From: a virus
DNA length: 64,000 nucleotides
Strand: one strand, 5' to 3'
IMG/VR virus record: IMGVR_UViG_3300037424_001177
Location: 32,001 to 96,000 of that record
Positions within the stretch are counted from its first letter, which is position 1. Each line of letters starts with the position of its first letter. The position numbers and the translations under genes are program-made. The notes under the pieces were generated by a model. It did no database searches, was not told where the DNA came from, and saw nothing but the letters and a program-made list of their open reading frames with translations. This document shows, one piece after another, positions 5,747 to 27,126 of the stretch.

Positions 5747-6901
5747 ATGATCCGAACCTTTCGTTACCCTCTCCGGCCTACCAAGGCTCAGGCCACAACT
5801 ATCGAAGATTGGCTGCGGCATTGTCGTTGGTTGTACAACGGAGCGTTGGAAGAGAGGATCTCATACTACAGGAAATTTGGTAAAGGGCTCACAAGGATCG
5901 ATCAGCAAAAATCTCTCACGGAACTGCGCTCGGATGACCTCTCCTGGACACAGATCCCGCTGAACGTTCTCCGATCTTCTCTTCGGAAGCTCGAGTTAGC
6001 CTACCAAGGCTTCTTTCGGCGTTTGAAGAAGGGCGAGACGCCCGGCTTCCCACGCTTCAAAGGAGCTAATAGGTTTCGTTCGTTTTCTCTTCAAAAATCA
6101 ACTAAGGTTGAGCACAAGGTCAAAGGATCTCAAGCCAAGGTTTGGATCCCAAAACTTGGATGGGTGCACTTTCACGAATACCGACCTATCCAAGGTAAAC
6201 TTTTGGATGTCTCGCTCCGTAAGGAGCATGACGACCGATGGTTTGTTTGCTTCCAGTGTGATTTAGGCAAGGCACCTGAAGTTTCAATTGATCCAACGAA
6301 GTCGGTAGGGATCGATCTAGGACTCAGACATTTTGTGACCCTCTCAAATGGTGAGACAATCGAGAATCCTCGATTCTTTCGAAAGTCGGAGAAGGTGCTT
6401 GCCGAACGGCAGCGCACTTTGCAACGCAAGCGCCGTGGCTCCAACTCTCGAATAGTGGCCAATAGACTCGTTGCTAAGGCACATCTTTGGATCCGAAATC
6501 AACGACTCGATTTCTCTAGGAAGCTGTCTAAACAATTATTTACAAGATTTGATGTGATCTTCCACGAGGACCTCAACATCAAAGGGATGACACGATCCCT
6601 GAATTTTGGAAAATCAGTCAACGATGCTGCTTGGGGTATTTTTCTCCGATCCTTAGCTTACAAAGCGGAAGAAGCTGGTAAGCTCTTGATCGGAGTTGAT
6701 CCAAGAGGAACCACACAACGGTGCAGTGGCTGCGGTGAGCACGTCCCAAAGGGACGTGCTCACCGCAGCCACCTGTGTCCCTCGTGTGGGCTCAACTTGG
6801 ACCGGGATCACAATGCGGCCCTAAACATTCAAACGCTCGGCTTGAGCGTGGTACTAGAACACACGAGGCCGGTGAAGCTTGCTATCGGTGTTCTATCTTA
6901 A
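5747..6901 (+). CDS. tnpB: TnpB (IS200/IS605-family RNA-guided endonuclease); no tnpA nearby
   Basis: MIRTFRYPLRPT HTH start, GFPRFK, RuvC residues GIDLG / FHEDL / DRDHNAA all intact, Zn ribbon CSGC...CPSC. Confidence 0.95.
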   Translation: MIRTFRYPLRPTKAQATTIEDWLRHCRWLYNGALEERISYYRKFGKGLTRIDQQKSLTELRSDDLSWTQIPLNVLRSSLRKLELAYQGFFRRLKKGETPGFPRFKGANRFRSFSLQKSTKVEHKVKGSQAKVWIPKLGWVHFHEYRPIQGKLLDVSLRKEHDDRWFVCFQCDLGKAPEVSIDPTKSVGIDLGLRHFVTLSNGETIENPRFFRKSEKVLAERQRTLQRKRRGSNSRIVANRLVAKAHLWIRNQRLDFSRKLSKQLFTRFDVIFHEDLNIKGMTRSLNFGKSVNDAAWGIFLRSLAYKAEEAGKLLIGVDPRGTTQRCSGCGEHVPKGRAHRSHLCPSCGLNLDRDHNAALNIQTLGLSVVLEHTRPVKLAIGVLS

Positions 6902-8890: not shown

Positions 8891-9415
8891 ATGCGATCAC
8901 GACAAGAAGTCGAGGCTCGTGTCCGCTACCTTGTGAATGAGGAGTTGGTCAGACGACTAGCTGAGATCGAGCAGTGTCAGCCACATCATTGCAAGCACAA
9001 CTATCGACATCCTCTTGACACTCGCCGTCGGATCGGTGAGACAGCCAATCCCAACTACAACAGGATTGCGTTGGCGGGTGAAGCGACGATCGGTTTGTGT
9101 ATGTTAGGGTCGGAGGATGTCGTGTCGTGGCCCGGCACGATTTGTGAAGACGTTGAGATGGCACTGGCGTGTCCGTACTACACTTCGAAAACAACCAGAG
9201 GTGATGTTTTAACAACATATCGCGACCAACTACAAGACCTTGCTTGGCTTGAGCAAAACTTGCCCCAAGTATTTGAACTTGTGTGGGTACTGCAAGCTGT
9301 TTCTGCACCAACCCTGACTTGGTGGCAAAGCCTTATTTTAGTGTGGAGGACCAGACGGAGCAAGTGGTTGAGGGCAGTGTCCAGACGCTTGAGCTTGCAA
9401 CGATTAGGTGAGTGA
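8891..9415 (+). CDS. hypothetical Cys/His-containing protein
   Basis: ORF tightly packed in the operon; CQPHHCKH and additional Cys residues. Confidence 0.55.
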   Translation: MRSRQEVEARVRYLVNEELVRRLAEIEQCQPHHCKHNYRHPLDTRRRIGETANPNYNRIALAGEATIGLCMLGSEDVVSWPGTICEDVEMALACPYYTSKTTRGDVLTTYRDQLQDLAWLEQNLPQVFELVWVLQAVSAPTLTWWQSLILVWRTRRSKWLRAVSRRLSLQRLGE

Positions 9416-11251: not shown

Positions 11252-12649
11252 ATGTGGGATGTTAGGTACAGGCCGCTGCGGTTCAGCGACGTGCTCGGCC
11301 AAGAGGGAGCCGTCCAAGTCCTGAAGTCGCGTTTGCGTCGAGGCACAGGGCTCGACACGAGCTACATTTTCAGTGGAGGAGCTGGACGCGGCAAAACAAC
11401 CCTGGCCCGCATCCTGGCCCGCGCTTTGTTGTGTCAGGCCCTAACTGAGGACTCTGAGCCGTGCAATCAGTGTGAAAACTGCCTCGATACACTGAATGAG
11501 ACTGCCCCGGCTTTGCAGGAGATGGACGCCGCTAGTCGAGGCACTATCGACAATGTCAGAGCCATTGTCGATAGCTTGCCGTTTTTGGTCGCAGGCGCGA
11601 CGAAACGAATTTACATTTTCGACGAAGTCCATCGCATGAGTCGGGACGCCCAGGATGTGCTTCTGAAGCCGTTGGAAGACAAACTACTAGTAGGTATTTT
11701 CTGTACTACGGAACCTGACAAGATACGGACACCGATCCGTTCCCGTTGTGAGGAGCACCAGATTCGGAGGATTACTCGGGAACACGTGTTTGCACGTCTT
11801 ACGTTGGTTCTTACTCAAGAGGGCGTGACGTACGAAGACGACGCTGTGTGGACGGTGGTGGACCACTCCTTGGGGCATGTGCGTGACGCTCTAAACACGT
11901 TGGAGATGCTAGCCCAGTTGGGTCCTGTCACGCTGACTTCGGCACGTGAGCACTTGAATCTATCGGATGTTGCACGGTACTATGAGATCCTATTGGCTCT
12001 TGGCGACACTCCCACAGCAGTACAGTTGATCGAGGAGATCTGTGATCGTGTTTCTCCGGAGACAGTTTCTGAGGGCTTGGCTGAGGCTGCGATGAACAGC
12101 TTTCGTCTGGCCAACAACATGGTAGCCGACTACTCACGTGTCGATCGTGACTTGGCGGCTCGTGTTTGGACTAAATACCAAGCCGGCGTGATCCGTTTGG
12201 TTGAATACTTGATGAAGCCTGGACGTGTTACACGATCAAGTTTGATCTGCGATGCTGTCTTGTGTGCTTCTGGCGCTCCTGACAGACCGACTCAGCCTTC
12301 AATTCCCAGTCTATCTGCCGTTATATCACCACAGGTCCCCCCGCTACAACACAATCCGGACAAGCTTGTCGTAGCGGCACCTACAGTGCTACAACACAAT
12401 CCAGCAAAGCTTGTCGTAGCGGCACCTACAGTGACTGGGTTGCGTGCAGACGGGATCGGAAATTTGGGATCCCCTGATGTGCAGGCGTTGACATCCATGG
12501 ATGTGGTGGCCGTTCCTCGAGAGGCGTCACGAGGACAGAAAACGGATCCAGTACCGAAGCCTAAAGTTCTCTCACGAGAAGGATTTTTGACGCCTCCGGA
12601 ATGGCGACTGAAATTTTGGCAACTCCACACCACTCTGGCAGGCGCGTAA
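11252..12649 (+). CDS. dnaX: DNA polymerase III gamma/tau (clamp loader)
   Basis: YRPLRFSDVLGQ, GGAGRGKTT, C..PCNQCENC, EMDAAS, FDEVHRMS, SRC. Confidence 0.92.
   Translation: MWDVRYRPLRFSDVLGQEGAVQVLKSRLRRGTGLDTSYIFSGGAGRGKTTLARILARALLCQALTEDSEPCNQCENCLDTLNETAPALQEMDAASRGTIDNVRAIVDSLPFLVAGATKRIYIFDEVHRMSRDAQDVLLKPLEDKLLVGIFCTTEPDKIRTPIRSRCEEHQIRRITREHVFARLTLVLTQEGVTYEDDAVWTVVDHSLGHVRDALNTLEMLAQLGPVTLTSAREHLNLSDVARYYEILLALGDTPTAVQLIEEICDRVSPETVSEGLAEAAMNSFRLANNMVADYSRVDRDLAARVWTKYQAGVIRLVEYLMKPGRVTRSSLICDAVLCASGAPDRPTQPSIPSLSAVISPQVPPLQHNPDKLVVAAPTVLQHNPAKLVVAAPTVTGLRADGIGNLGSPDVQALTSMDVVAVPREASRGQKTDPVPKPKVLSREGFLTPPEWRLKFWQLHTTLAGA
12343..12432 (+). repeat. 45-bp tandem duplication inside dnaX (LQHNPxKLVVAAPTV x2)
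   Basis: gctacaacacaatccggacaagcttgtcgtagcggcacctacagt is followed by a near-identical copy starting at 12388. Confidence 0.9.
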
Positions 12650-12682
12650 TTTGTGGGCGAGCGAGACCCTAAGGTTCAGACA

Positions 12683-12724
12683 ATGATCCGAACCTTCCGT
12701 TACCCTCTCCGGCCTACCAAGGCT
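12683..12724 (+). repeat. 42-bp copy of the tnpB 5' end (41/42 identical to 5747-5788)
   Basis: atgatccgaaccttccgttaccctctccggcctaccaaggct versus atgatccgaacctttcgttaccctctccggcctaccaaggct. Confidence 0.95.
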
Positions 12725-12765
12725 ACAACACACAGGCAAGTTTTGCACGTCTGTGTGTTGTAGTC
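12721..12765 (+). promoter_or_regulatory. strong hairpin upstream of the NusG fusion gene
   Basis: ctacaacacacag (12723-12735) is the exact reverse complement of ctgtgtgttgtag (12751-12763); an inner gcaa/ttgc pair is also possible. Confidence 0.6.
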
Positions 12766-12777
12766 GAAGTCTGGTTT

Positions 12778-14634
12778 ATGGACAAAGCCGGCGAATGGGT
12801 AGTCCTTGAGTTGAGCTCTCGTGGTGAGCAAGAGGACCCCAAGATCCTTTCGGACGCTATTACACGATCACTGAAGGGCGCTGAGGTATTTGTCCCGGCT
12901 GCTGTGTCTGTAGTCGGTGGCAGCCGAACCTATCAGTATTTGGTGGACGGCTACGCATTTGTCAAACTTGACGGTCGCCGTCGAACTGACGATTTCTTCA
13001 AACTCGAGGGCACCAAGTTCGTGACTTCCGTCCTGGTGAAACCCGGACACAATAGGACTTTGTCAACTGTAGGCGATGACGCTATACAGAAATTACAAAA
13101 TCAGATACACACGTTCACGGATCAGGGCATAGGTATTGGCGATGTCGTCGTGATCACTACAGGCATATATCATGGTTTGCAAGCTGACGTTTACGAGGAG
13201 ATACCGGAACGTGACATGGTACAAGTTCGTCTCAAGTTGAGATCCAAGGAAGCCTTGTTGACGATTCCTCGATCTGCCTTGCAAGTTGTGGAGCGAGCCA
13301 CGTGGTCCAATCAGCGCGATCGTATTGATCTTTTGCTGAAGTGGACTCGTGACACCCAAGTGATTTTCTGTTGGAACTCTTTGACGCCGGATCTTTTGGT
13401 GAGTGTCTATCGGGATTTTCGATCTGTCAATCAGTGGTACGTTTCTGGTCGTTATTTGTGCGGATTCTTGGCTTTTGATACCACGATTCGGCAACAATGG
13501 CAGTTGTTGAATCGTGATTGTGTCGGCTACAACCGTCTCCATCGTCTGGAGAGTCGTGGACATTTGTTGTGTGCGTTTGTTGTCGCGTATCGTTTGTCCG
13601 AGACTGGCCTGCGAACGATACGTCAGTGGTGGCGCCACCTAAAACATGTGGCGAGCATAGTTGAGCGTTTGCAGAGACTTTGGGAAGAGGTCGACAACTT
13701 GTCACGACAGTTTTCGTCACAACAAGAGGATGGAGGGAAGTTGATACACAACGTCATCGTAGACGGTCACGCTTTGGCGTACCGTTGCTTCTACGCTAAA
13801 GGCCTGAACACTCTGACACATCAAGGGGAGCCGTCCGGAGCCGTCCTCGGATTTTTTCGCAGCTTGGCTTCGCTCCGAAAGCGTTACTCGACTGCGGCCT
13901 TGCGGGTGGTGTGGGATGGGTCCTCTGCACGTCGCAAGGCCCGATATACCGCCTACAAGGCCACGAGGAAGTCTCAGGACATCTCGTGGGTGGTTGCTAC
14001 GCTGCGCACACTGCTACCAGTTGTAGGGGTCAGACAACACTGGAACCCTGCTGAGGAGGCGGATGATGTGATTGCGACTTTGGTGAGGCACGATCTGGTT
14101 GATCAGAACAACCTCATCTTTTCGTCGGACCGGGATTTCCTACAGTTGGTTACTGACCGTACACATGTTTTGGTGCCAGCTACGGGTGCACGTAATGAAG
14201 TGCTCTTTGATCCTGCGGAGGTATCTCGTCGCTTTGGGGTACCACCTGGAAAGATGCTCGAATTGCGAGCTATGTTTGGTGACTCGAGCGATAATTTGAC
14301 CGGTGTCTGTCGAGTGCCGAAGAAAGTGCTCACGGATCTCTTGAAAGCCTACGGCTCTGTTGACAGGGTCTATCAGTCCGGGCTGGCGTCTGTGACAAAG
14401 GCGCAGTATGCTCGTTTGCAGACTGCGGAGTCGACAGTCAAGTTGAACCTGGAACTGATGTCCCTACAGGACGTGGACGTAACAACGATCTCTGCGGAGC
14501 CTGATCAAGCCTCCGCCACCAGACGTTTGCAGTCCATTGGCATACAATCTGAAGGTTTGTTGTCTGCATTTTTTCCGCAGTCGGATGTCGTAGTTGGTAA
14601 CGACTCGCAGGACTACATGTCACTTGCGATTTAA
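12778..14634 (+). CDS. NusG-like (NGN+KOW) domain fused to a PolA-type 5'-3' exonuclease/flap endonuclease
   Basis: N-terminus: WVVL..GE, VFVP, LVDGYAFV, IGIGDVVVITTGIYHG (KOW). C-terminus: IVDGHALAYR, VWDG, RK..Y.AYKATR, EADDVIATL, SSDRDFLQL, GDSSDN. Confidence 0.8.
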   Translation: MDKAGEWVVLELSSRGEQEDPKILSDAITRSLKGAEVFVPAAVSVVGGSRTYQYLVDGYAFVKLDGRRRTDDFFKLEGTKFVTSVLVKPGHNRTLSTVGDDAIQKLQNQIHTFTDQGIGIGDVVVITTGIYHGLQADVYEEIPERDMVQVRLKLRSKEALLTIPRSALQVVERATWSNQRDRIDLLLKWTRDTQVIFCWNSLTPDLLVSVYRDFRSVNQWYVSGRYLCGFLAFDTTIRQQWQLLNRDCVGYNRLHRLESRGHLLCAFVVAYRLSETGLRTIRQWWRHLKHVASIVERLQRLWEEVDNLSRQFSSQQEDGGKLIHNVIVDGHALAYRCFYAKGLNTLTHQGEPSGAVLGFFRSLASLRKRYSTAALRVVWDGSSARRKARYTAYKATRKSQDISWVVATLRTLLPVVGVRQHWNPAEEADDVIATLVRHDLVDQNNLIFSSDRDFLQLVTDRTHVLVPATGARNEVLFDPAEVSRRFGVPPGKMLELRAMFGDSSDNLTGVCRVPKKVLTDLLKAYGSVDRVYQSGLASVTKAQYARLQTAESTVKLNLELMSLQDVDVTTISAEPDQASATRRLQSIGIQSEGLLSAFFPQSDVVVGNDSQDYMSLAI

Positions 14635-14654: not shown

Positions 14655-15317
14655 GTGAGCACTGCTGGATATGTGATCTCGATTGACCCGATGAGATTGG
14701 CTACCCGATTCTCTTCTGAAGACGACGCCTTTTTTGCTGACGACACAGGTGACAGTGTCGATGCTGATTCTATCGAAGGCGTCAGTACCGAGGATTTGGA
14801 AGAGTTCTTTGCCACTAGTTCGTACGAAGAGAAAATCATGCCACTGTTGGACCGTATCCCGGGGCGTGAGGCTGACTTGATTTTGCTTTACTACATTTTG
14901 CGGAAGAAGCAGGCCGACATTGCAGCGATCTTCGAAGTGACGCAGGCGGCTGTCAGCTACCGACTCGCTCGCGGGATCAAACGACTGAAATTCTTGTTGA
15001 GCATACCGCAGGTCACGGAAGAGGACATGCGCACTGATTTGGCATCACTGTTCAGTCCTCGAGACACCAACATTTTGGTGGGCATGTGGCAGACCACCTG
15101 TCAGTCTGAAGTGGCTTTGCGCTTGCATATTCCACAGAGTGGTGTGCGACACTATTTTTTTCGTGCTGTTGATCGCTTGAAAAGCGCAGCCGGAGAAGAT
15201 CCAAAGTACGTTCCGTATGAGAAGATTTTCAGCACTATTGCTGCGAAAAATTTTAATATCTTGCGCGCCGTATCGTTGCCCCAGTGGGCAAATAGGGGTG
15301 GAAACGTTTGTGAGTGA
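14655..15317 (+). CDS. protein with two sigma-70 region-4-like HTH modules
   Basis: IPGREADLILLYY..KKQADIA.IFEVTQAAVSYRL.R...RLK and FSPRDTNIL.....QSEVALRLHIPQSGVRHYFFRA..RLK. SD GGAGG. Confidence 0.7.
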   Translation: MSTAGYVISIDPMRLATRFSSEDDAFFADDTGDSVDADSIEGVSTEDLEEFFATSSYEEKIMPLLDRIPGREADLILLYYILRKKQADIAAIFEVTQAAVSYRLARGIKRLKFLLSIPQVTEEDMRTDLASLFSPRDTNILVGMWQTTCQSEVALRLHIPQSGVRHYFFRAVDRLKSAAGEDPKYVPYEKIFSTIAAKNFNILRAVSLPQWANRGGNVCE

Positions 15318-19369: not shown

Positions 19370-19962
19370 AGCCGTTAGACGACCAGCCAAATGACGTAGT
19401 TGGAACACGCGAAGCTTTGGAAGCTGCTCGGGCAGCGGCTGGCGGAGACATCATTCCAATTGCTCAAGGTCGACGACAACGCGGGCTTCGCACGGCGGCT
19501 AAAAAGATTCTTGATCAAGATTCGACAAATGAGCAGGTAGACGTCCAACGCAAGCACTATCTGAAAAACAACGATCTGATACGTTACGCTGAGGAACGCA
19601 AAGGTGGAGCGACCCTCGATTTGTTGTACACGGTCCGTCGTGAGATAGCCGAAGAGGTTTCGGCTATGCATTTCAATCGAGAGCTGTTGGACCGGAACGG
19701 CTACGACTCGACGACGGTTTCACGAACTCGTGTTATCGCGTTACGCGAGCTGATGCGATTGGAAGTCGAACTGCAACGCATGAATGGTGGATCTATCAAC
19801 TTGCGCGGAGACAAGTTCCAGAAAGTGTTCTCACATTTTATTGACGTTATCCGCGACGCAGCTCAAGCGACTTTGGCTCCTGAACAGGTGAACGTATTTT
19901 TCAATGCCCTGGAGAACAGGTTGGTAGGTTGGGAGGAACGCGTCGACAGCCTGGCTCGTTAA
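19366..19962 (+). CDS. helical protein, candidate terminase small subunit
   Basis: Position immediately upstream of terL and a helical ~200-aa sequence; the function is inferred from position only. Confidence 0.4.
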   Translation: MKPLDDQPNDVVGTREALEAARAAAGGDIIPIAQGRRQRGLRTAAKKILDQDSTNEQVDVQRKHYLKNNDLIRYAEERKGGATLDLLYTVRREIAEEVSAMHFNRELLDRNGYDSTTVSRTRVIALRELMRLEVELQRMNGGSINLRGDKFQKVFSHFIDVIRDAAQATLAPEQVNVFFNALENRLVGWEERVDSLAR

Positions 19963-24194: not shown

Positions 24195-26029
24195 TGGCCT
24201 ACTCAAATTTTCCGAGACGATATTCTGCTGTGATTCAGGTTCCAGATTCGCGTAGCTTGACCAAGCCCTACGTGTCTGGGGCGTACAGTAGCCAGCTGAC
24301 GTTCAAGGAGCGTCTTGCCCGTCGTGTTCAGTCGAGTGGGGCTTTGGGTGGGTTCGGACTCAGCAGCATGGGTCTTGGAGGCGGAACAGGGATTGGTTTG
24401 GGTGCTGCTGGTGGGACCATGCAAAGCTCCCAGAGCAACTTCTACAGCCCCCAGCTATCCACGGACTTCCTCGAGCTGCCGCAAAGCGTTCGTGAGCGAC
24501 GAGAGATTTTCCGGCACTTCTACAACTCGGATGAGATAGTCGGACAAGCCATTGACATCCACACAGAGCTTCCTCTCTCGAAAGTTCGACTGACTGCCCC
24601 GAAACCCCTCAAAGCACCAGAGGGTTTCAGCTCACCGGAGAATTACGGGAAATACATTCTCAGTCGTTTCGAGCGCATGTGCAAGAAGATCAAGTTGTTC
24701 CAACGACTGATCACGATCGTACATCACTACTGGCTCGATGGCGTCACGTGCATTTTTGCCGAGGACTCGTCGGTTGAAGTCCCGGAAGACGTGGGTCGCA
24801 CAAAGAAGACGATCAAGGAAGCTGTCTTGCGTGAGGATGGAACTACATTCGACCAAGACAAGACAATTTGGGAAGACACCCCCGAGACGGATGCGGCCGA
24901 ATCAGCTTACTACAAGAAACACTATGTGGGGTGGGATCGACTGATAGTAATACCTATTGATAAAGTGAAAATCACCACGTTCAGCTACAGTGATCGTCCT
25001 CTTATTGAGTTGATTCCGTCTGAGCGCGACCGTCAAATGATTGAGCGCGCGAAAACCGGAGATGTCGACGCGAAAAAATTGGTTGAACAAATTCCGAATG
25101 AGGTCCGAAGTTGTCTCGAAGCGGGCAAGACAATACCGCTTGGCACCGATCCAGACAAAGGATCGTTCGGTTACATTTTGACCGGCAGCAAAGACGCTGA
25201 CATCAGTATCGGTCAACCAATATTGGGGAGATGCCTTAGATCCTTGATCTATATTGATAAGCTCCGACAGGCTCAGACGTCCATCGCGTCTCGGGCAATG
25301 ACACCTAAGCGCATCGTATGGGCCGAAGGGTTGAGCGACATCGATACTGACGCGTTGCGTGAGCAGGTGGATCTGGCGCTCGTCGATCCTGACTACTCGA
25401 TTGTCGCCAATTACGAAGTCCACTGGGAGGAGATGGGGGCCCGAGATCGTCTCCTGGATTTGTCAGCGGAGTACGAACAAGTCCAACGTAGAATCTTGGC
25501 AGGTCTCGGCGTGACGGAAAGTTTGATGTCTGGGGAGTCTTTGTACTCCGGTGACCGTCTTAAGCTTGAAGTCATCAATCAACGTTACTTGCATCTTCGG
25601 GAGATCTTGCAGGAGTACGTCGAGGAGTACCTTTTCCGCCCGATAGCAAGGCGCATGGGATTCATTGAGGAGGACGAGTGGGGGCAGGAAGTCGTGTTGT
25701 GTCCGAAGCTGTCTTTCACACGCTTGCCGTTGAGGGATAGCCAAGACACATTCAACGACCTCTACAATCTGTACTCGAAGGGGTCGATCTCAATCGACCT
25801 CATTCTTGAGACGTTGAATATCGACCCTGGCGATACGAAGTCCAAAATCGAACGTGATCTTTTCACGGTCAACGACGCTATATTCAACGAGGTCTTGCGT
25901 TCGCTTTACAACGAAGTGGGGCGTCTCTTGGTCGACAAGACAGACGTCTTGGAGCGTATTTCCAAGTACCTGAAGCTCGAGATGAACTCCAAAGATGAAG
26001 CCCTACCGGAAGAAGGTCGGTTCGGGTGA
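24194..26029 (+). CDS. portal protein
   Basis: ~610 aa, between terminase and protease/scaffold/MCP; R.FY..D.IVGQAIDIH.ELP, G.PIL.R.L..L, RILAGLGV.ESL.SG portal-like pattern. Confidence 0.8.
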   Translation: MAYSNFPRRYSAVIQVPDSRSLTKPYVSGAYSSQLTFKERLARRVQSSGALGGFGLSSMGLGGGTGIGLGAAGGTMQSSQSNFYSPQLSTDFLELPQSVRERREIFRHFYNSDEIVGQAIDIHTELPLSKVRLTAPKPLKAPEGFSSPENYGKYILSRFERMCKKIKLFQRLITIVHHYWLDGVTCIFAEDSSVEVPEDVGRTKKTIKEAVLREDGTTFDQDKTIWEDTPETDAAESAYYKKHYVGWDRLIVIPIDKVKITTFSYSDRPLIELIPSERDRQMIERAKTGDVDAKKLVEQIPNEVRSCLEAGKTIPLGTDPDKGSFGYILTGSKDADISIGQPILGRCLRSLIYIDKLRQAQTSIASRAMTPKRIVWAEGLSDIDTDALREQVDLALVDPDYSIVANYEVHWEEMGARDRLLDLSAEYEQVQRRILAGLGVTESLMSGESLYSGDRLKLEVINQRYLHLREILQEYVEEYLFRPIARRMGFIEEDEWGQEVVLCPKLSFTRLPLRDSQDTFNDLYNLYSKGSISIDLILETLNIDPGDTKSKIERDLFTVNDAIFNEVLRSLYNEVGRLLVDKTDVLERISKYLKLEMNSKDEALPEEGRFG

Positions 26030-27126
26030 TAAGGCATCCTGACCACGTTTCGGGGTCGCTGATCTTAGCTCCGAAGTCGATGACCAAGAGGGCCATACGT
26101 ATTTCTGGCAACCGACACCTCGTTGTAACGGACGTTTACGACCTGTATTGGTTTTTCGCGTACGCTCGTCAGGACATCTTTTATCGTCGAGTCGCCGGAG
26201 AGGATCCTCCGTGGACTACGAACCCGATCTTCAATAGGTACCGTTTTTGTAATGTGTATCGAGTGTCGGACCGCGTGAGCCAGTACTTGATCCGACACGT
26301 GATCTACGAAGGGATCCAGTCGCCTGAGGAGATCCTTTTCCGAATCATGCTTTTTCGGGTGTTCAACAAGATCGAGACTTGGGAATGGTTGGTTTCACAA
26401 CACGGTGAGTTGACGTGGAAAACTTTCTCATACCAATTGTACGCAAGGTCGTTGGACTTGTTGAAGGTCTATGGAGAGCCCGTCTACAACCATGCTTACA
26501 TACTCCCGTGTCCAAACATTGACAATTTGAGGTGCAAGCACCATGCACATTTGCGGCTGTTGGAGCAGTCGATGTTGGGTGAGCTGCCGATGCTTGTGTA
26601 CACGGCTGACACGTTTGAAACCCTTTACCGAAGGATTCATGCGATCCCGTCGTTTGGACCGTTCCTCGCTTTCCAGTTGGCCATCGACATCAACTATAGC
26701 CCGATCTGTAATTTTTCCGAGAACGACTACGTCGTTGCGGGGCTTGGCGCCAAAGACGGGATCCGGAAGTGCTTCACAGACATTGGGGACTTGTCGGAAG
26801 CGGACATCATCAAGGTCGTCTGTGATAGAGCCGAAGAGGAGTTCCATTCCCGAGGCCTACTCTGGAAGGGCTTGTGGGGACGCCCCCTGCAACTGATCGA
26901 TTGTCAGAACTTGTTCTGCGAGATCGGTAAGTACTCCCGGGCTTCACATCCCGCTTTCAAAGGGATGCTTAAGCGCGTCAGAATCAAGAATCGCTACCGT
27001 CCTAAGCCATTTCCTGTACCTCAGTGGTATCCGCCGAAGTGGGGTCTTGTGCCTGATCCGACGAACATGATGCGACAAGGTTCCGCTGGATACCTGCACG
27101 AGCAGCTGGCACCGCGTTCTGCATAG
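26026..27126 (+). CDS. aGPT-pyrophosphorylase clade 1 / 5-hmdU DNA kinase helical-domain family (DNA base hypermodification)
   Basis: RQ.I..RR..G..PPWT..PI...YRFCNVYR..DRVSQYLI, FRVFNKIETW, GPFLAFQ..ID, G.GA..G, IDCQNLFCE..KY.R. Confidence 0.75.
   Translation: MIRHPDHVSGSLILAPKSMTKRAIRISGNRHLVVTDVYDLYWFFAYARQDIFYRRVAGEDPPWTTNPIFNRYRFCNVYRVSDRVSQYLIRHVIYEGIQSPEEILFRIMLFRVFNKIETWEWLVSQHGELTWKTFSYQLYARSLDLLKVYGEPVYNHAYILPCPNIDNLRCKHHAHLRLLEQSMLGELPMLVYTADTFETLYRRIHAIPSFGPFLAFQLAIDINYSPICNFSENDYVVAGLGAKDGIRKCFTDIGDLSEADIIKVVCDRAEEEFHSRGLLWKGLWGRPLQLIDCQNLFCEIGKYSRASHPAFKGMLKRVRIKNRYRPKPFPVPQWYPPKWGLVPDPTNMMRQGSAGYLHEQLAPRSA

What the first reader, a model, noticed from the sequence alone, without database searches (positions are those of the whole stretch)
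12778..14634. NusG (NGN+KOW) fused to a 5'-3' exonuclease at the replication/late-gene junction
Seen: one uninterrupted 618-aa ORF with a NusG-type NGN+KOW N-terminus, a ~150-aa W/R-rich helical linker and a PolA-type 5'-3' exonuclease with its acidic motifs intact (DG, WDG, EADD, SDRD, GDSSDN); the Gly-rich HhH is altered to GVCRVP. An internal SD (GGAGG 13732-36) and TTG at 13741 could also yield a free exonuclease. Known: NusG/Spt5 NGN domains ride on elongating RNA polymerase, and PolA 5'-exo/FEN domains degrade RNA primers and flaps. Inference: an RNAP-tethered 5' nuclease could handle R-loops or RNA primers, act in torpedo-like termination, or couple replication to late transcription. 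It lies between dnaX and the sigma-like gene, just before the virion genes. I do not know of a described protein with this architecture.
Basis: partly seen in the sequence, partly recalled or inferred. Interest (0 to 1): 0.85.

Follow-up and report, generated by a model that had tools for sequence, protein, structure and literature searches.

The report
Huge-phage NusG fused to flap nuclease
A very large uncultured phage, like many relatives, joins a copy of the RNA-polymerase-riding factor NusG to its only DNA flap nuclease in one protein, which points to an undescribed and testable physical link between phage transcription and DNA replication.

Summary
Window 12778-14634 (+) is one open 618-aa frame. 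It has a NusG-type NGN+KOW head (1-172), a 146-aa Trp/Arg-rich helical arm, and a complete PolA-type 5' flap nuclease with every catalytic acid. It is not an artefact. About 120 listed full-length homologues and 53 of 63 viral loci carry the same fusion, on phage records of up to 529 kb.

It always sits in the block Toprim, metallopeptidase, clamp loader, [NusG-like..FEN], sigma region-4 gene. In four near-complete relatives it is the only FEN and the only NGN gene.

New here:
- A sister group keeps NusG-like and FEN as separate adjacent genes, with no arm.
- Some phages have the NusG-like gene between clamp loader and sigma gene with no FEN.
- The fused gene has split again at least twice, exactly at the arm/FEN border.
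- One contig fuses a sigma factor to the same NusG-like module.

RNA polymerase binding and the nuclease's substrate remain untested. The internal SD/TTG is not supported once codon composition is controlled for.

This scan had already found the same family on at least five other genomes, with the same verdict. I found no paper describing it.

The parts
12778..14634 (+). Whole 618-aa NusG-like / helical arm / FEN fusion gene (P0001)
12778..13122 (+). NGN domain (aa 1-115). Invariant W7, P21, P40, L55, Y59 and F61. The block L55-x-x-G/N58-Y59-x-F61 aligns with LFPGYVFV of T. maritima NusG.
   Evidence: (RfaH NGN Z 9.8)
13126..13293 (+). KOW domain (aa 117-172). Bacterial NusG-type motif IGxGDxVxIxxGxY, with the family-specific invariant loop R155-S156-K157 and P164-R165.
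   Evidence: T. maritima NusG KOW Z 11.4, rmsd 1.1 A
13300..13740 (+). Helical Trp/Arg-rich arm (aa 175-321). Three long helices. Length varies among relatives (119-187 aa) through extra copies of a roughly 35-40-aa unit (R..W...G..L..F).
   Evidence: no structural analogue found
13732..13743 (+). GGAGG (13732-36) plus TTG codon 322 (13741-43) at the arm/FEN border. This is the position of the FEN start codon in split relatives.
13753..14238 (+). FEN catalytic core (PF02739, aa 326-487) with all the acidic residues and the arch motif RRKxxYxxYKAxR
14239..14472 (+). FEN H3TH/SAM-fold domain (PF01367, aa 488-565). The Gly-rich hairpin is replaced by GVCRVP (14302-14319).
14557..14574 (+). Conserved C-terminal tail motif (I/L)(L/I)xxFF (LLSAFF, aa 594-599). 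It is PIP-box-like. A role in clamp binding is my inference only.
12662..12789 (+). Lineage-specific 128-nt insertion at the 5' end of the gene. It holds a 42-nt copy of the tnpB start (12683-12724) joined to a perfect 13-bp hairpin (12723-35 / 12751-63). It displaces the ancestral GTG at 12653 and supplies the present ATG at 12778.
11252..12649 (+). Clamp-loader (DnaX/delta'-like) gene, the invariant upstream neighbour
14655..15317 (+). Sigma-70 region-4 protein, the invariant downstream neighbour

Best explanation
Shown: this is a real, conserved gene of a clade of huge phages (records of about 390-530 kb; the window is part of a 159-kb record that CheckV rates 33% complete). The protein is a phage NusG paralogue (NGN+KOW). 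Through a long helical repeat arm it carries the phage's only PolA-type flap endonuclease.

Inferred mechanism:
1. The NGN docks on the clamp helices of elongating host RNA polymerase, as NGN domains of the family do. No beta' Rpb1_2 domain was detected in five related records, and sigma-like genes are present.
2. There it acts as a specialised elongation factor for the phage's very long one-directional gene arrays.
3. The arm holds the active 5' nuclease within reach of the upstream fork, so that 5' flaps or the RNA 5' ends of RNA:DNA hybrids (R-loops, transcripts used as primers, Okazaki primers) are cut where transcription and replication meet.

Evolution, shown: the order of events was a NusG-like gene between clamp loader and sigma gene, then FEN as the adjacent gene, then fusion with gain of the arm, then occasional re-splitting at the arm/FEN border.
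For: Architecture and family:
- About 120 listed full-length homologues.
- 53 of 63 viral loci are fused.
- All catalytic acids are invariant.
- NGN+KOW is supported by profile and by fold.

Context:
- Gene order is identical in the 43 viral loci that span the block and in L002, and consistent in the 20 shorter or partial ones.
- The gene is the sole FEN and the sole NGN hit in four near-complete (94-100%) records and in the window's own 33%-complete record.
- No beta' Rpb1_2 domain is detectable in five related records.

Transcription link of the head:
- The NusG-like gene lies beside a sigma region-4 gene even where there is no FEN (LR745208.1 and P0187).
- P0180 joins sigma regions 2 and 4 to the same NusG-like module (38% identity, E 3e-34).

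Functional link of head and FEN:
- They are adjacent separate genes in the sister group.
- They are fused in the main clade.
- Re-splitting happens only at the border, and is reproduced in independent samples.

Precedents from papers: NGN covers the non-template strand and the upstream fork junction (bioRxiv 10.1101/324400). In archaea, a nuclease works on the elongation complex together with Spt4/5 (PMC11616081, abstract).
Against: - No direct evidence that this NGN binds any RNA polymerase, and the host is unknown.
- The Pfam NusG score of this sequence is below the cut-off.
- The covalent link is dispensable. Roughly one in five 50%-identity clusters of the fused clade appear as a head+arm protein without FEN, and a large outer group is never fused. 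Tethering may therefore not be the point.
- FEN enzymes are structure-specific DNA nucleases. As the only FEN in the genome, this one is expected to serve lagging-strand primer removal whatever it is attached to.
- The H3TH hairpin is atypical.
Confidence: 0.45

Rival explanations
1. Two independent jobs in one polypeptide. The head is a late-transcription processivity or anti-termination factor that works with the phage sigma-like proteins. The FEN is simply the replisome's primer-removal nuclease. Adjacent genes fused, so the fusion only ensures co-expression, and free FEN may also be made from the junction start codon.
For: - The NusG-like gene occurs without FEN in some phages.
- The two are separate genes in the sister group and in secondary splits.
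- A start-type codon at residue 322 is present in 86% of 36 non-redundant sequences, and the FEN of split forms starts there or 5-10 codons upstream.
- It is the only FEN in the genome.
Against: - The fusion, and a dedicated arm of about 150 aa, are kept across a clade that has diverged to 38-50% identity.
- The NusG-like-then-FEN order is kept even when the genes are separate.
- When the gene splits, the arm stays with the head, which suggests an interaction module rather than a spacer left by accident.
- Nothing at the nucleotide level supports an internal ribosome site.
Confidence: 0.28
2. The NGN-KOW head has been re-used as a replisome adaptor. It binds a replication partner (clamp loader, clamp, primase or SSB) rather than RNA polymerase, and positions the FEN at Okazaki fragments.
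For: - The clamp loader is always directly upstream, and translationally coupled in 43 of 43 relatives (gap -59 to +10 nt).
- The KOW loop carries a family-specific invariant RSK motif.
- The FEN tail has a PIP-like (I/L)LxxFF motif.
Against: - To my knowledge, no NGN domain is known to work outside RNA polymerase binding.
- The most conserved NGN block aligns with the NusG LFPGYVFV strand.
- The sigma gene is just as constant a neighbour, and a sigma-NusG-like fusion exists.
- No sliding clamp gene could be identified.
Confidence: 0.13
3. Torpedo-type or FttA-like terminator. The RNA polymerase-bound nuclease degrades nascent RNA from a 5' end and dislodges the polymerase.
For: The analogy with FttA-Spt4/5 (PMC11616081) and with 5'-3' exonuclease torpedoes. 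The nuclease is intact.
Against: - PolA-type FENs cut 5' flaps at duplex junctions and are not processive single-strand RNases (established knowledge of the family; closest structures are FenA, ExoIX and Taq).
- It is the genome's only FEN, so it is needed for replication.
- A tethered enzyme cannot 'chase' the polymerase.
Confidence: 0.08
4. Artefact: a stop-codon loss, a frameshift error or a chimeric assembly joined two genes.
For: None found.
Against: Dozens of independent assemblies from JGI, ENA, NCBI and Logan carry the same open frame.
Confidence: 0.01

Closest known systems
Specialised NusG paralogues (RfaH, LoaP, UpxY, ActX/TaA) and housekeeping bacterial NusG
   Same: NGN+KOW two-domain head of bacterial type (profile E 2.5e-9 to T. 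maritima NusG; fold Z 9.8-11.4). It is encoded by a mobile genome with very long co-directional gene arrays, the setting in which specialised paralogues act.
   Different: - It is phage-encoded.
- A 146-aa helical arm and a nuclease follow the KOW.
- The KOW has a family-specific RSK loop.
- The reviews PMC7819879 and PMC7593976 mention no nuclease fusion and no phage member.
- RNA polymerase binding is untested.
PolA-type 5' nucleases / bacterial and phage FENs (M. smegmatis FenA and Pol1 N-domain, Taq Pol I N-domain, E. coli ExoIX, T5 D15, T4 RNase H)
   Same: - Both Pfam domains are above their cut-offs.
- All metal-binding acids and the arch motif are present.
- The fold matches FenA at E 1e-15.
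- The family profile hits the M. smegmatis Pol1 5' domain at 1.9e-43.
   Different: - It is not attached to a polymerase, and in this window it is not free-standing either.
- The Gly-rich H3TH hairpin (GVPGVGEKTA type) is replaced by GVPRVPKK.
- The C-terminal tail carries an (I/L)LxxFF motif.
Archaeal FttA (aCPSF1) with Spt4/Spt5 on the elongation complex
   Same: A nuclease works on a transcribing polymerase together with the NusG/Spt5-family factor (PMC11616081, abstract).
   Different: FttA is a beta-CASP RNase that is recruited non-covalently and cuts nascent RNA. Here a DNA-structure-specific FEN is covalently joined to the factor.
T4 late transcription (gp45 clamp, gp44/62 loader, gp33, gp55) and T4 RNase H
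   Same: Clamp-loader, FEN and sigma-like genes lie together at the border between replication and late genes. The idea that replication intermediates are coupled to late transcription is shared.
   Different: No sequence relation to gp33 or gp55 was shown. No clamp gene was found. The coupling here would run through a NusG-like adaptor. The resemblance rests on my knowledge of T4 and not on a test.

Membership tests
NusG/Spt5 family | NGN domain recognisable by sequence | tested here: met
   The family profile hits T. maritima NusG at E 2.5e-9 across NGN+KOW. 30 of 41 members hit PF02357 at E <= 0.1, best 1.2e-5. The window's own sequence scores 17.4-19.8 bits, below the 22.2 cut-off.
NusG/Spt5 family | NGN fold (alpha/beta) | tested here: met
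   The AF2 model has pLDDT above 90 in the NGN. RfaH NGN 8pen_P gives Z 9.8, rmsd 3.0 A over 97 residues. NusG 6vz7_AB gives Z 8.0. Spt5 NGN 3lpe_A gives Z 7.8. The top Foldseek rows are all NusG/RfaH/Spt5.
NusG/Spt5 family | KOW domain after the NGN | tested here: met
   PF00467 is hit in 33 of 41 members at E <= 0.1. T. maritima NusG KOW gives Z 11.4, rmsd 1.1 A over 56 residues.
NusG/Spt5 family | NGN binds the beta' clamp helices of elongating RNA polymerase | not testable with these tools
   The host is unknown and there is no binding assay. The context (sigma gene neighbour, sigma-NusG-like fusion P0180) is only indirect.
NusG/Spt5 family | KOW recruits Rho or ribosomal protein S10 | not tested
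   The KOW loop is an invariant R155-S156-K157. I did not verify how it compares with the E. coli contact residues.
PolA-type 5'-3' exonuclease / FEN | Both Pfam domains above the curated cut-off | tested here: met
   PF02739 scores 108.9 against 34.3. PF01367 scores 43.4 against 40.
PolA-type 5'-3' exonuclease / FEN | Full set of metal-binding carboxylates | tested here: met
   D329, D380, E427, D429, D430, D451, D453, D502 and D505 are invariant in 55 sequences.
PolA-type 5'-3' exonuclease / FEN | Helical arch with conserved basic and aromatic residues | tested here: met
   The consensus SSxRRKxxFxxYKANR aligns with RKDKYPEYKEGR of M. smegmatis Pol1.
PolA-type 5'-3' exonuclease / FEN | Gly-rich H3TH hairpin (GxPGxGxKTA) | tested here: not met
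   The window has GVCRVPKKV and the family consensus is GVPRVPKKVL, against GIPGVGEKTA in M. smegmatis Pol1. The change is also present in the unfused sister group. The fold of the domain is kept.
PolA-type 5'-3' exonuclease / FEN | Flap endonuclease / 5' exonuclease activity | not testable with these tools
   This needs an enzyme assay.

The most novel reading that the evidence does not exclude
The protein is a physical bridge between transcription and replication in huge phages. The NusG-like head rides host RNA polymerase that has been re-programmed by the phage's split sigma-like proteins. The arm-borne FEN, with its PIP-like tail, engages flaps, nicks or a sliding clamp left by the replisome. 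Late transcription would then be licensed by, or would clean up after, replication. This would be a T4-like replication-transcription coupling built from entirely different parts, and the first NusG-family factor with a covalently attached DNA nuclease.
Probability: 0.2. Interest if true: 0.85.

Novelty: new variant of a known kind. Interest (0 to 1): 0.65.

Why it matters
NusG/Spt5 is the only transcription factor family conserved in all life, and its C-terminal parts are known as platforms that recruit other machines to RNA polymerase. A large, conserved phage family in which that platform carries the genome's only replication flap nuclease would be a new kind of cargo. It would be a concrete handle on how very large phage genomes manage encounters between transcription and replication (R-loops, mRNA-primed restart, primer removal).

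The natural series gives ready-made controls for biochemistry:
- head alone;
- head and FEN as neighbouring genes;
- head-arm-FEN fused;
- the fused gene split again;
- sigma fused to the head.

It also adds phage-encoded NusG paralogues to a family so far discussed for cells and plasmids.

Tried and rejected
1. Complex prediction of the NGN (A2, residues 1-116) with E. coli beta' 250-330 gave no verdict: score 0.58, but a control scored 0.41. It is neither support nor evidence against.
3. Internal ribosome site. SD-like pairing upstream of the junction start codon is stronger than before other internal start-type codons (-5.9 against -3.15 kcal/mol, p 7e-9). Resampling synonymous codons gives -5.4 (p 0.12), so the Gly/Glu/Arg/Lys-rich junction explains it. 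Met493 and Met561 are conserved as well as residue 322.
4. Sliding clamp. There is no PF00712 hit in the window's record or in five relatives. Profiles of the conserved unknown genes o174 and o207 hit nothing in the PDB. The clamp-binding idea for the tail therefore stays untested.
5. The arm. There is no usable match in the ESM Atlas (TM at most 0.41), and no PDB row covers it. The arm was not folded alone, so I do not claim a new fold.
6. The 128-nt insertion is not related to the dispersed cassette noted elsewhere in this genome.
7. Cultured phages. No record in INPHARED has the fusion.
8. Cellular genomes. Among the best 80 loci kept from a scan of 185,579 species representatives, only one encodes the fusion (L002, a MAG contig with the same phage gene block). 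The others listed are ordinary Pol I 5' domains.
9. Papers. Searches for NusG with huge or jumbo phages, for phage-encoded NusG, and for NusG with exonuclease fusion found nothing relevant.

Full report
**The sequence.** Window 12778-14634 (+) is a single open frame of 618 aa. Pfam places a PolA-type 5'-3' exonuclease at 326-487 and 488-565, both above the curated cut-offs. It gives only a sub-threshold NusG match at 6-106. The closest solved sequences are the 5' nuclease domains of Taq and M. smegmatis Pol I and M. smegmatis FenA.

**The N-terminus.** I aligned residues 1-180 of 41 family members. The profile hits T. maritima NusG over NGN and KOW together at E 2.5e-9, followed by other NusG chains, Spt5 and uL24. 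Taken singly at E <= 0.1, 30 of 41 members hit Pfam NusG and 33 of 41 hit KOW.

Two AlphaFold2 models, of the full length and of residues 1-321, have mean pLDDT 85-87. They show an NGN (1-115), a five-stranded KOW barrel (120-172), three long helices (175-197, 204-272, 275-317) and the nuclease. In the PDB the head matches only NusG, RfaH and Spt5:
- KOW against T. maritima NusG: Z 11.4, rmsd 1.1 A over 56 residues.
- NGN against RfaH: Z 9.8, rmsd 3.0 A over 97 residues.
- Foldseek: 6e-8 to NusG in the lambda antitermination complex.

The nuclease matches FenA, ExoIX and Taq. The arm is not covered by any row and has no usable Atlas match.

**The nuclease looks active.** Nine carboxylates (D329, D380, E427, D429, D430, D451, D453, D502, D505) are invariant in 55 sequences. 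The arch motif aligns with that of M. smegmatis Pol1. The Gly-rich H3TH hairpin is replaced by GVPRVPKK in the whole family, and already in unfused relatives. It is therefore a lineage trait and not decay.

**It is a family.** A word-indexed search gave 640 hits, and about 120 of those listed are full-length at 38-50% identity. JGI names many of them '5'-3' exonuclease/transcription antitermination factor NusG'.
- In IMG/VR, 63 loci encode the head, on records of up to 529 kb, several with terminal repeats. 53 of them carry the fused frame of 555-681 aa.
- Among the best 80 loci kept from a scan of 185,579 prokaryotic species representatives, only one, a MAG contig carrying the same phage gene block, has it.
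- The window belongs to a 159-kb viral record rated 33% complete.

**Context.** The 43 viral loci that span the block, and L002, show the same order; the 20 shorter or partial loci are consistent with it. The order is unknown 428-aa gene, ATPase, two unknowns, Toprim, phage metallopeptidase, clamp loader, [head..FEN], sigma region-4 protein, then four conserved unknowns. In the window, the terminase follows at 19929.

In four near-complete relatives (94-100% by CheckV) and in the window's own 33%-complete record, this gene is the only FEN hit and the only NGN hit. No beta' Rpb1_2 domain and no DnaN were detected in the records searched. In 43 of 43 relatives the clamp-loader stop and the fusion's start overlap or lie within 10 nt of each other.

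**Evolution.**
- Six more distant viral loci (27-31% identity, G+C 0.34-0.48) have a 185-249-aa NusG-like gene directly followed by a separate 315-355-aa FEN gene, with no arm, and then the sigma gene.
- An exhaustive profile search of 1.84 billion representatives found 470 relatives of the head. Of the best 150, 48 carry the FEN motifs, about 13 strong hits are head+arm proteins of 285-386 aa, and 67 are shorter than 270 aa, most of them head-only proteins of 160-260 aa.
- One short form sampled (P0196) lies in the order clamp loader, an inserted RRXRR gene, NusG-like, FEN, sigma.
- Two cases have the NusG-like gene between clamp loader and sigma gene with no FEN. They are LR745208.1, a 485-kb uncultured phage with no PF02739 hit anywhere, and P0187.
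- Inside the fused clade, L104 is split by an ATGA overlap exactly at the residue-322 equivalent. L093 and L096 are split with the FEN start 5-10 codons before the conserved Asn.
- The L104-type split recurs in independent JGI and Logan assemblies.
- On a quick maximum-likelihood tree the unfused group is outside (support 100). L104 is sister to a fused gene (support 100), and L093+L096 lie elsewhere. The splits are therefore at least two secondary events (midpoint root, quick search, and the L096 row lacked its FEN part).
- P0180 joins sigma regions 2 and 4 to the same head (38% identity, E 3e-34), on a single 18-kb contig.

**Internal start.** Codon 322 is ATG, GTG or TTG in 86% of 36 non-redundant genes. 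Met493 and Met561 are equally conserved. SD-like pairing upstream is stronger than before other internal start-type codons, but not stronger than expected for the same amino acids with resampled codons. The codon is best read as the former start of the FEN gene. Use as an internal start is possible but unproven.

**Mechanism.** Shown:
- an intact NusG-type head;
- an apparently active FEN that is the genome's only one;
- a conserved arm that stays with the head when the gene splits;
- a constant position between clamp loader and sigma gene.

Inferred: the head binds elongating host polymerase, where NGN domains cover the non-template strand and the upstream fork (10.1101/324400), and brings the FEN to RNA:DNA or flap structures. 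The main rival is two independent functions fused for co-expression. A replisome-adaptor role and a torpedo role are less likely. The complex prediction with E. coli clamp helices gave no verdict and carries no weight.

**Start of this copy.** Compared with its closest relative L082, the window has a 128-nt insertion after the ancestral GTG-GGC-GAG. It carries a 42-nt copy (41 of 42 identical) of the start of the tnpB gene at 5747, joined to a perfect 13-bp hairpin. It supplies the present ATG. The N-terminal residues before Trp7 vary in the family, so the protein is probably unaffected, but the coupling to the clamp-loader gene is lost.

**Earlier scan notes.** After my own analysis I found that the scan had flagged the same family on at least five other genomes, with the same verdict. 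My results agree. They add the unfused sister group, the FEN-less forms, the secondary splits, the sigma fusion and the codon-controlled test of the internal start.

Noticed in passing
window 12650-12789: A 128-nt insertion sits at the very start of the fusion gene. It joins a 42-nt copy (41 of 42 identical) of the first codons of the tnpB gene at 5747 to a perfect 13-bp hairpin (12723-35 / 12751-63). This looks like a miniature derivative of the IS605-family element. It is absent from the 96%-identical relative L082 and from 42 other relatives. GGCGAG and GGCGAA flank it.
   Followed up: partly
L152:3612-5237 (protein P0180): A 541-aa protein joins sigma-70 region 2 and region 4 to the same phage NusG-like module (residues 322-492, 38% identical to the window's head). 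It lies in a phage-like context (Ku, SF2 helicase). It is known from a single 18-kb contig only.
   Followed up: partly
window 14655-15317, and L139:11587-12552: The invariant downstream gene has sigma region 4 but no detectable region 2. In L139, Pfam finds two region-4 stretches. Other first-stage notes on this genome describe a protein with two region-2 units upstream of the window, so a split sigma factor is possible.
   Followed up: no
window 26026-27126: There is a strong match to the 5-hmdU DNA kinase helical domain (E 2.3e-97), so the phage probably hypermodifies thymidine in its DNA.
   Followed up: no
window 5747-6901: A TnpB / IS605 OrfB gene lies between the PD-(D/E)XK nuclease gene and the conserved replication block.
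   Followed up: no
window 8891-9415 (alignment A4): This conserved 174-aa protein of the block has four invariant cysteines (C34, C70, C85, C94) and no match in Pfam, PHROGs or the PDB. It is probably a metal-binding protein of unknown role.
   Followed up: partly
L145:2161-4047 (LR745208.1): The clamp-loader gene of this 485-kb phage carries an intein (Hint / intein-splicing domains at residues 153-280).
   Followed up: no
L148:3856-5004: An RRXRR-domain gene is inserted between the clamp loader and the NusG-like gene in one unfused relative. It looks like a selfish insertion in the otherwise fixed block.
   Followed up: no
window 162-48331: Nearly all long ORFs over about 48 kb lie on the + strand. 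This is a very long co-directional array, the kind of unit for which specialised NusG paralogues are used in bacteria.
   Followed up: no
family C-termini: After the (I/L)LxxFF motif, one subclade ends in a second short motif, GF(S/A/L)K(T/S). Others end in hydrophobic tails (GLTL, SLAI). These may be short linear binding motifs.
   Followed up: no
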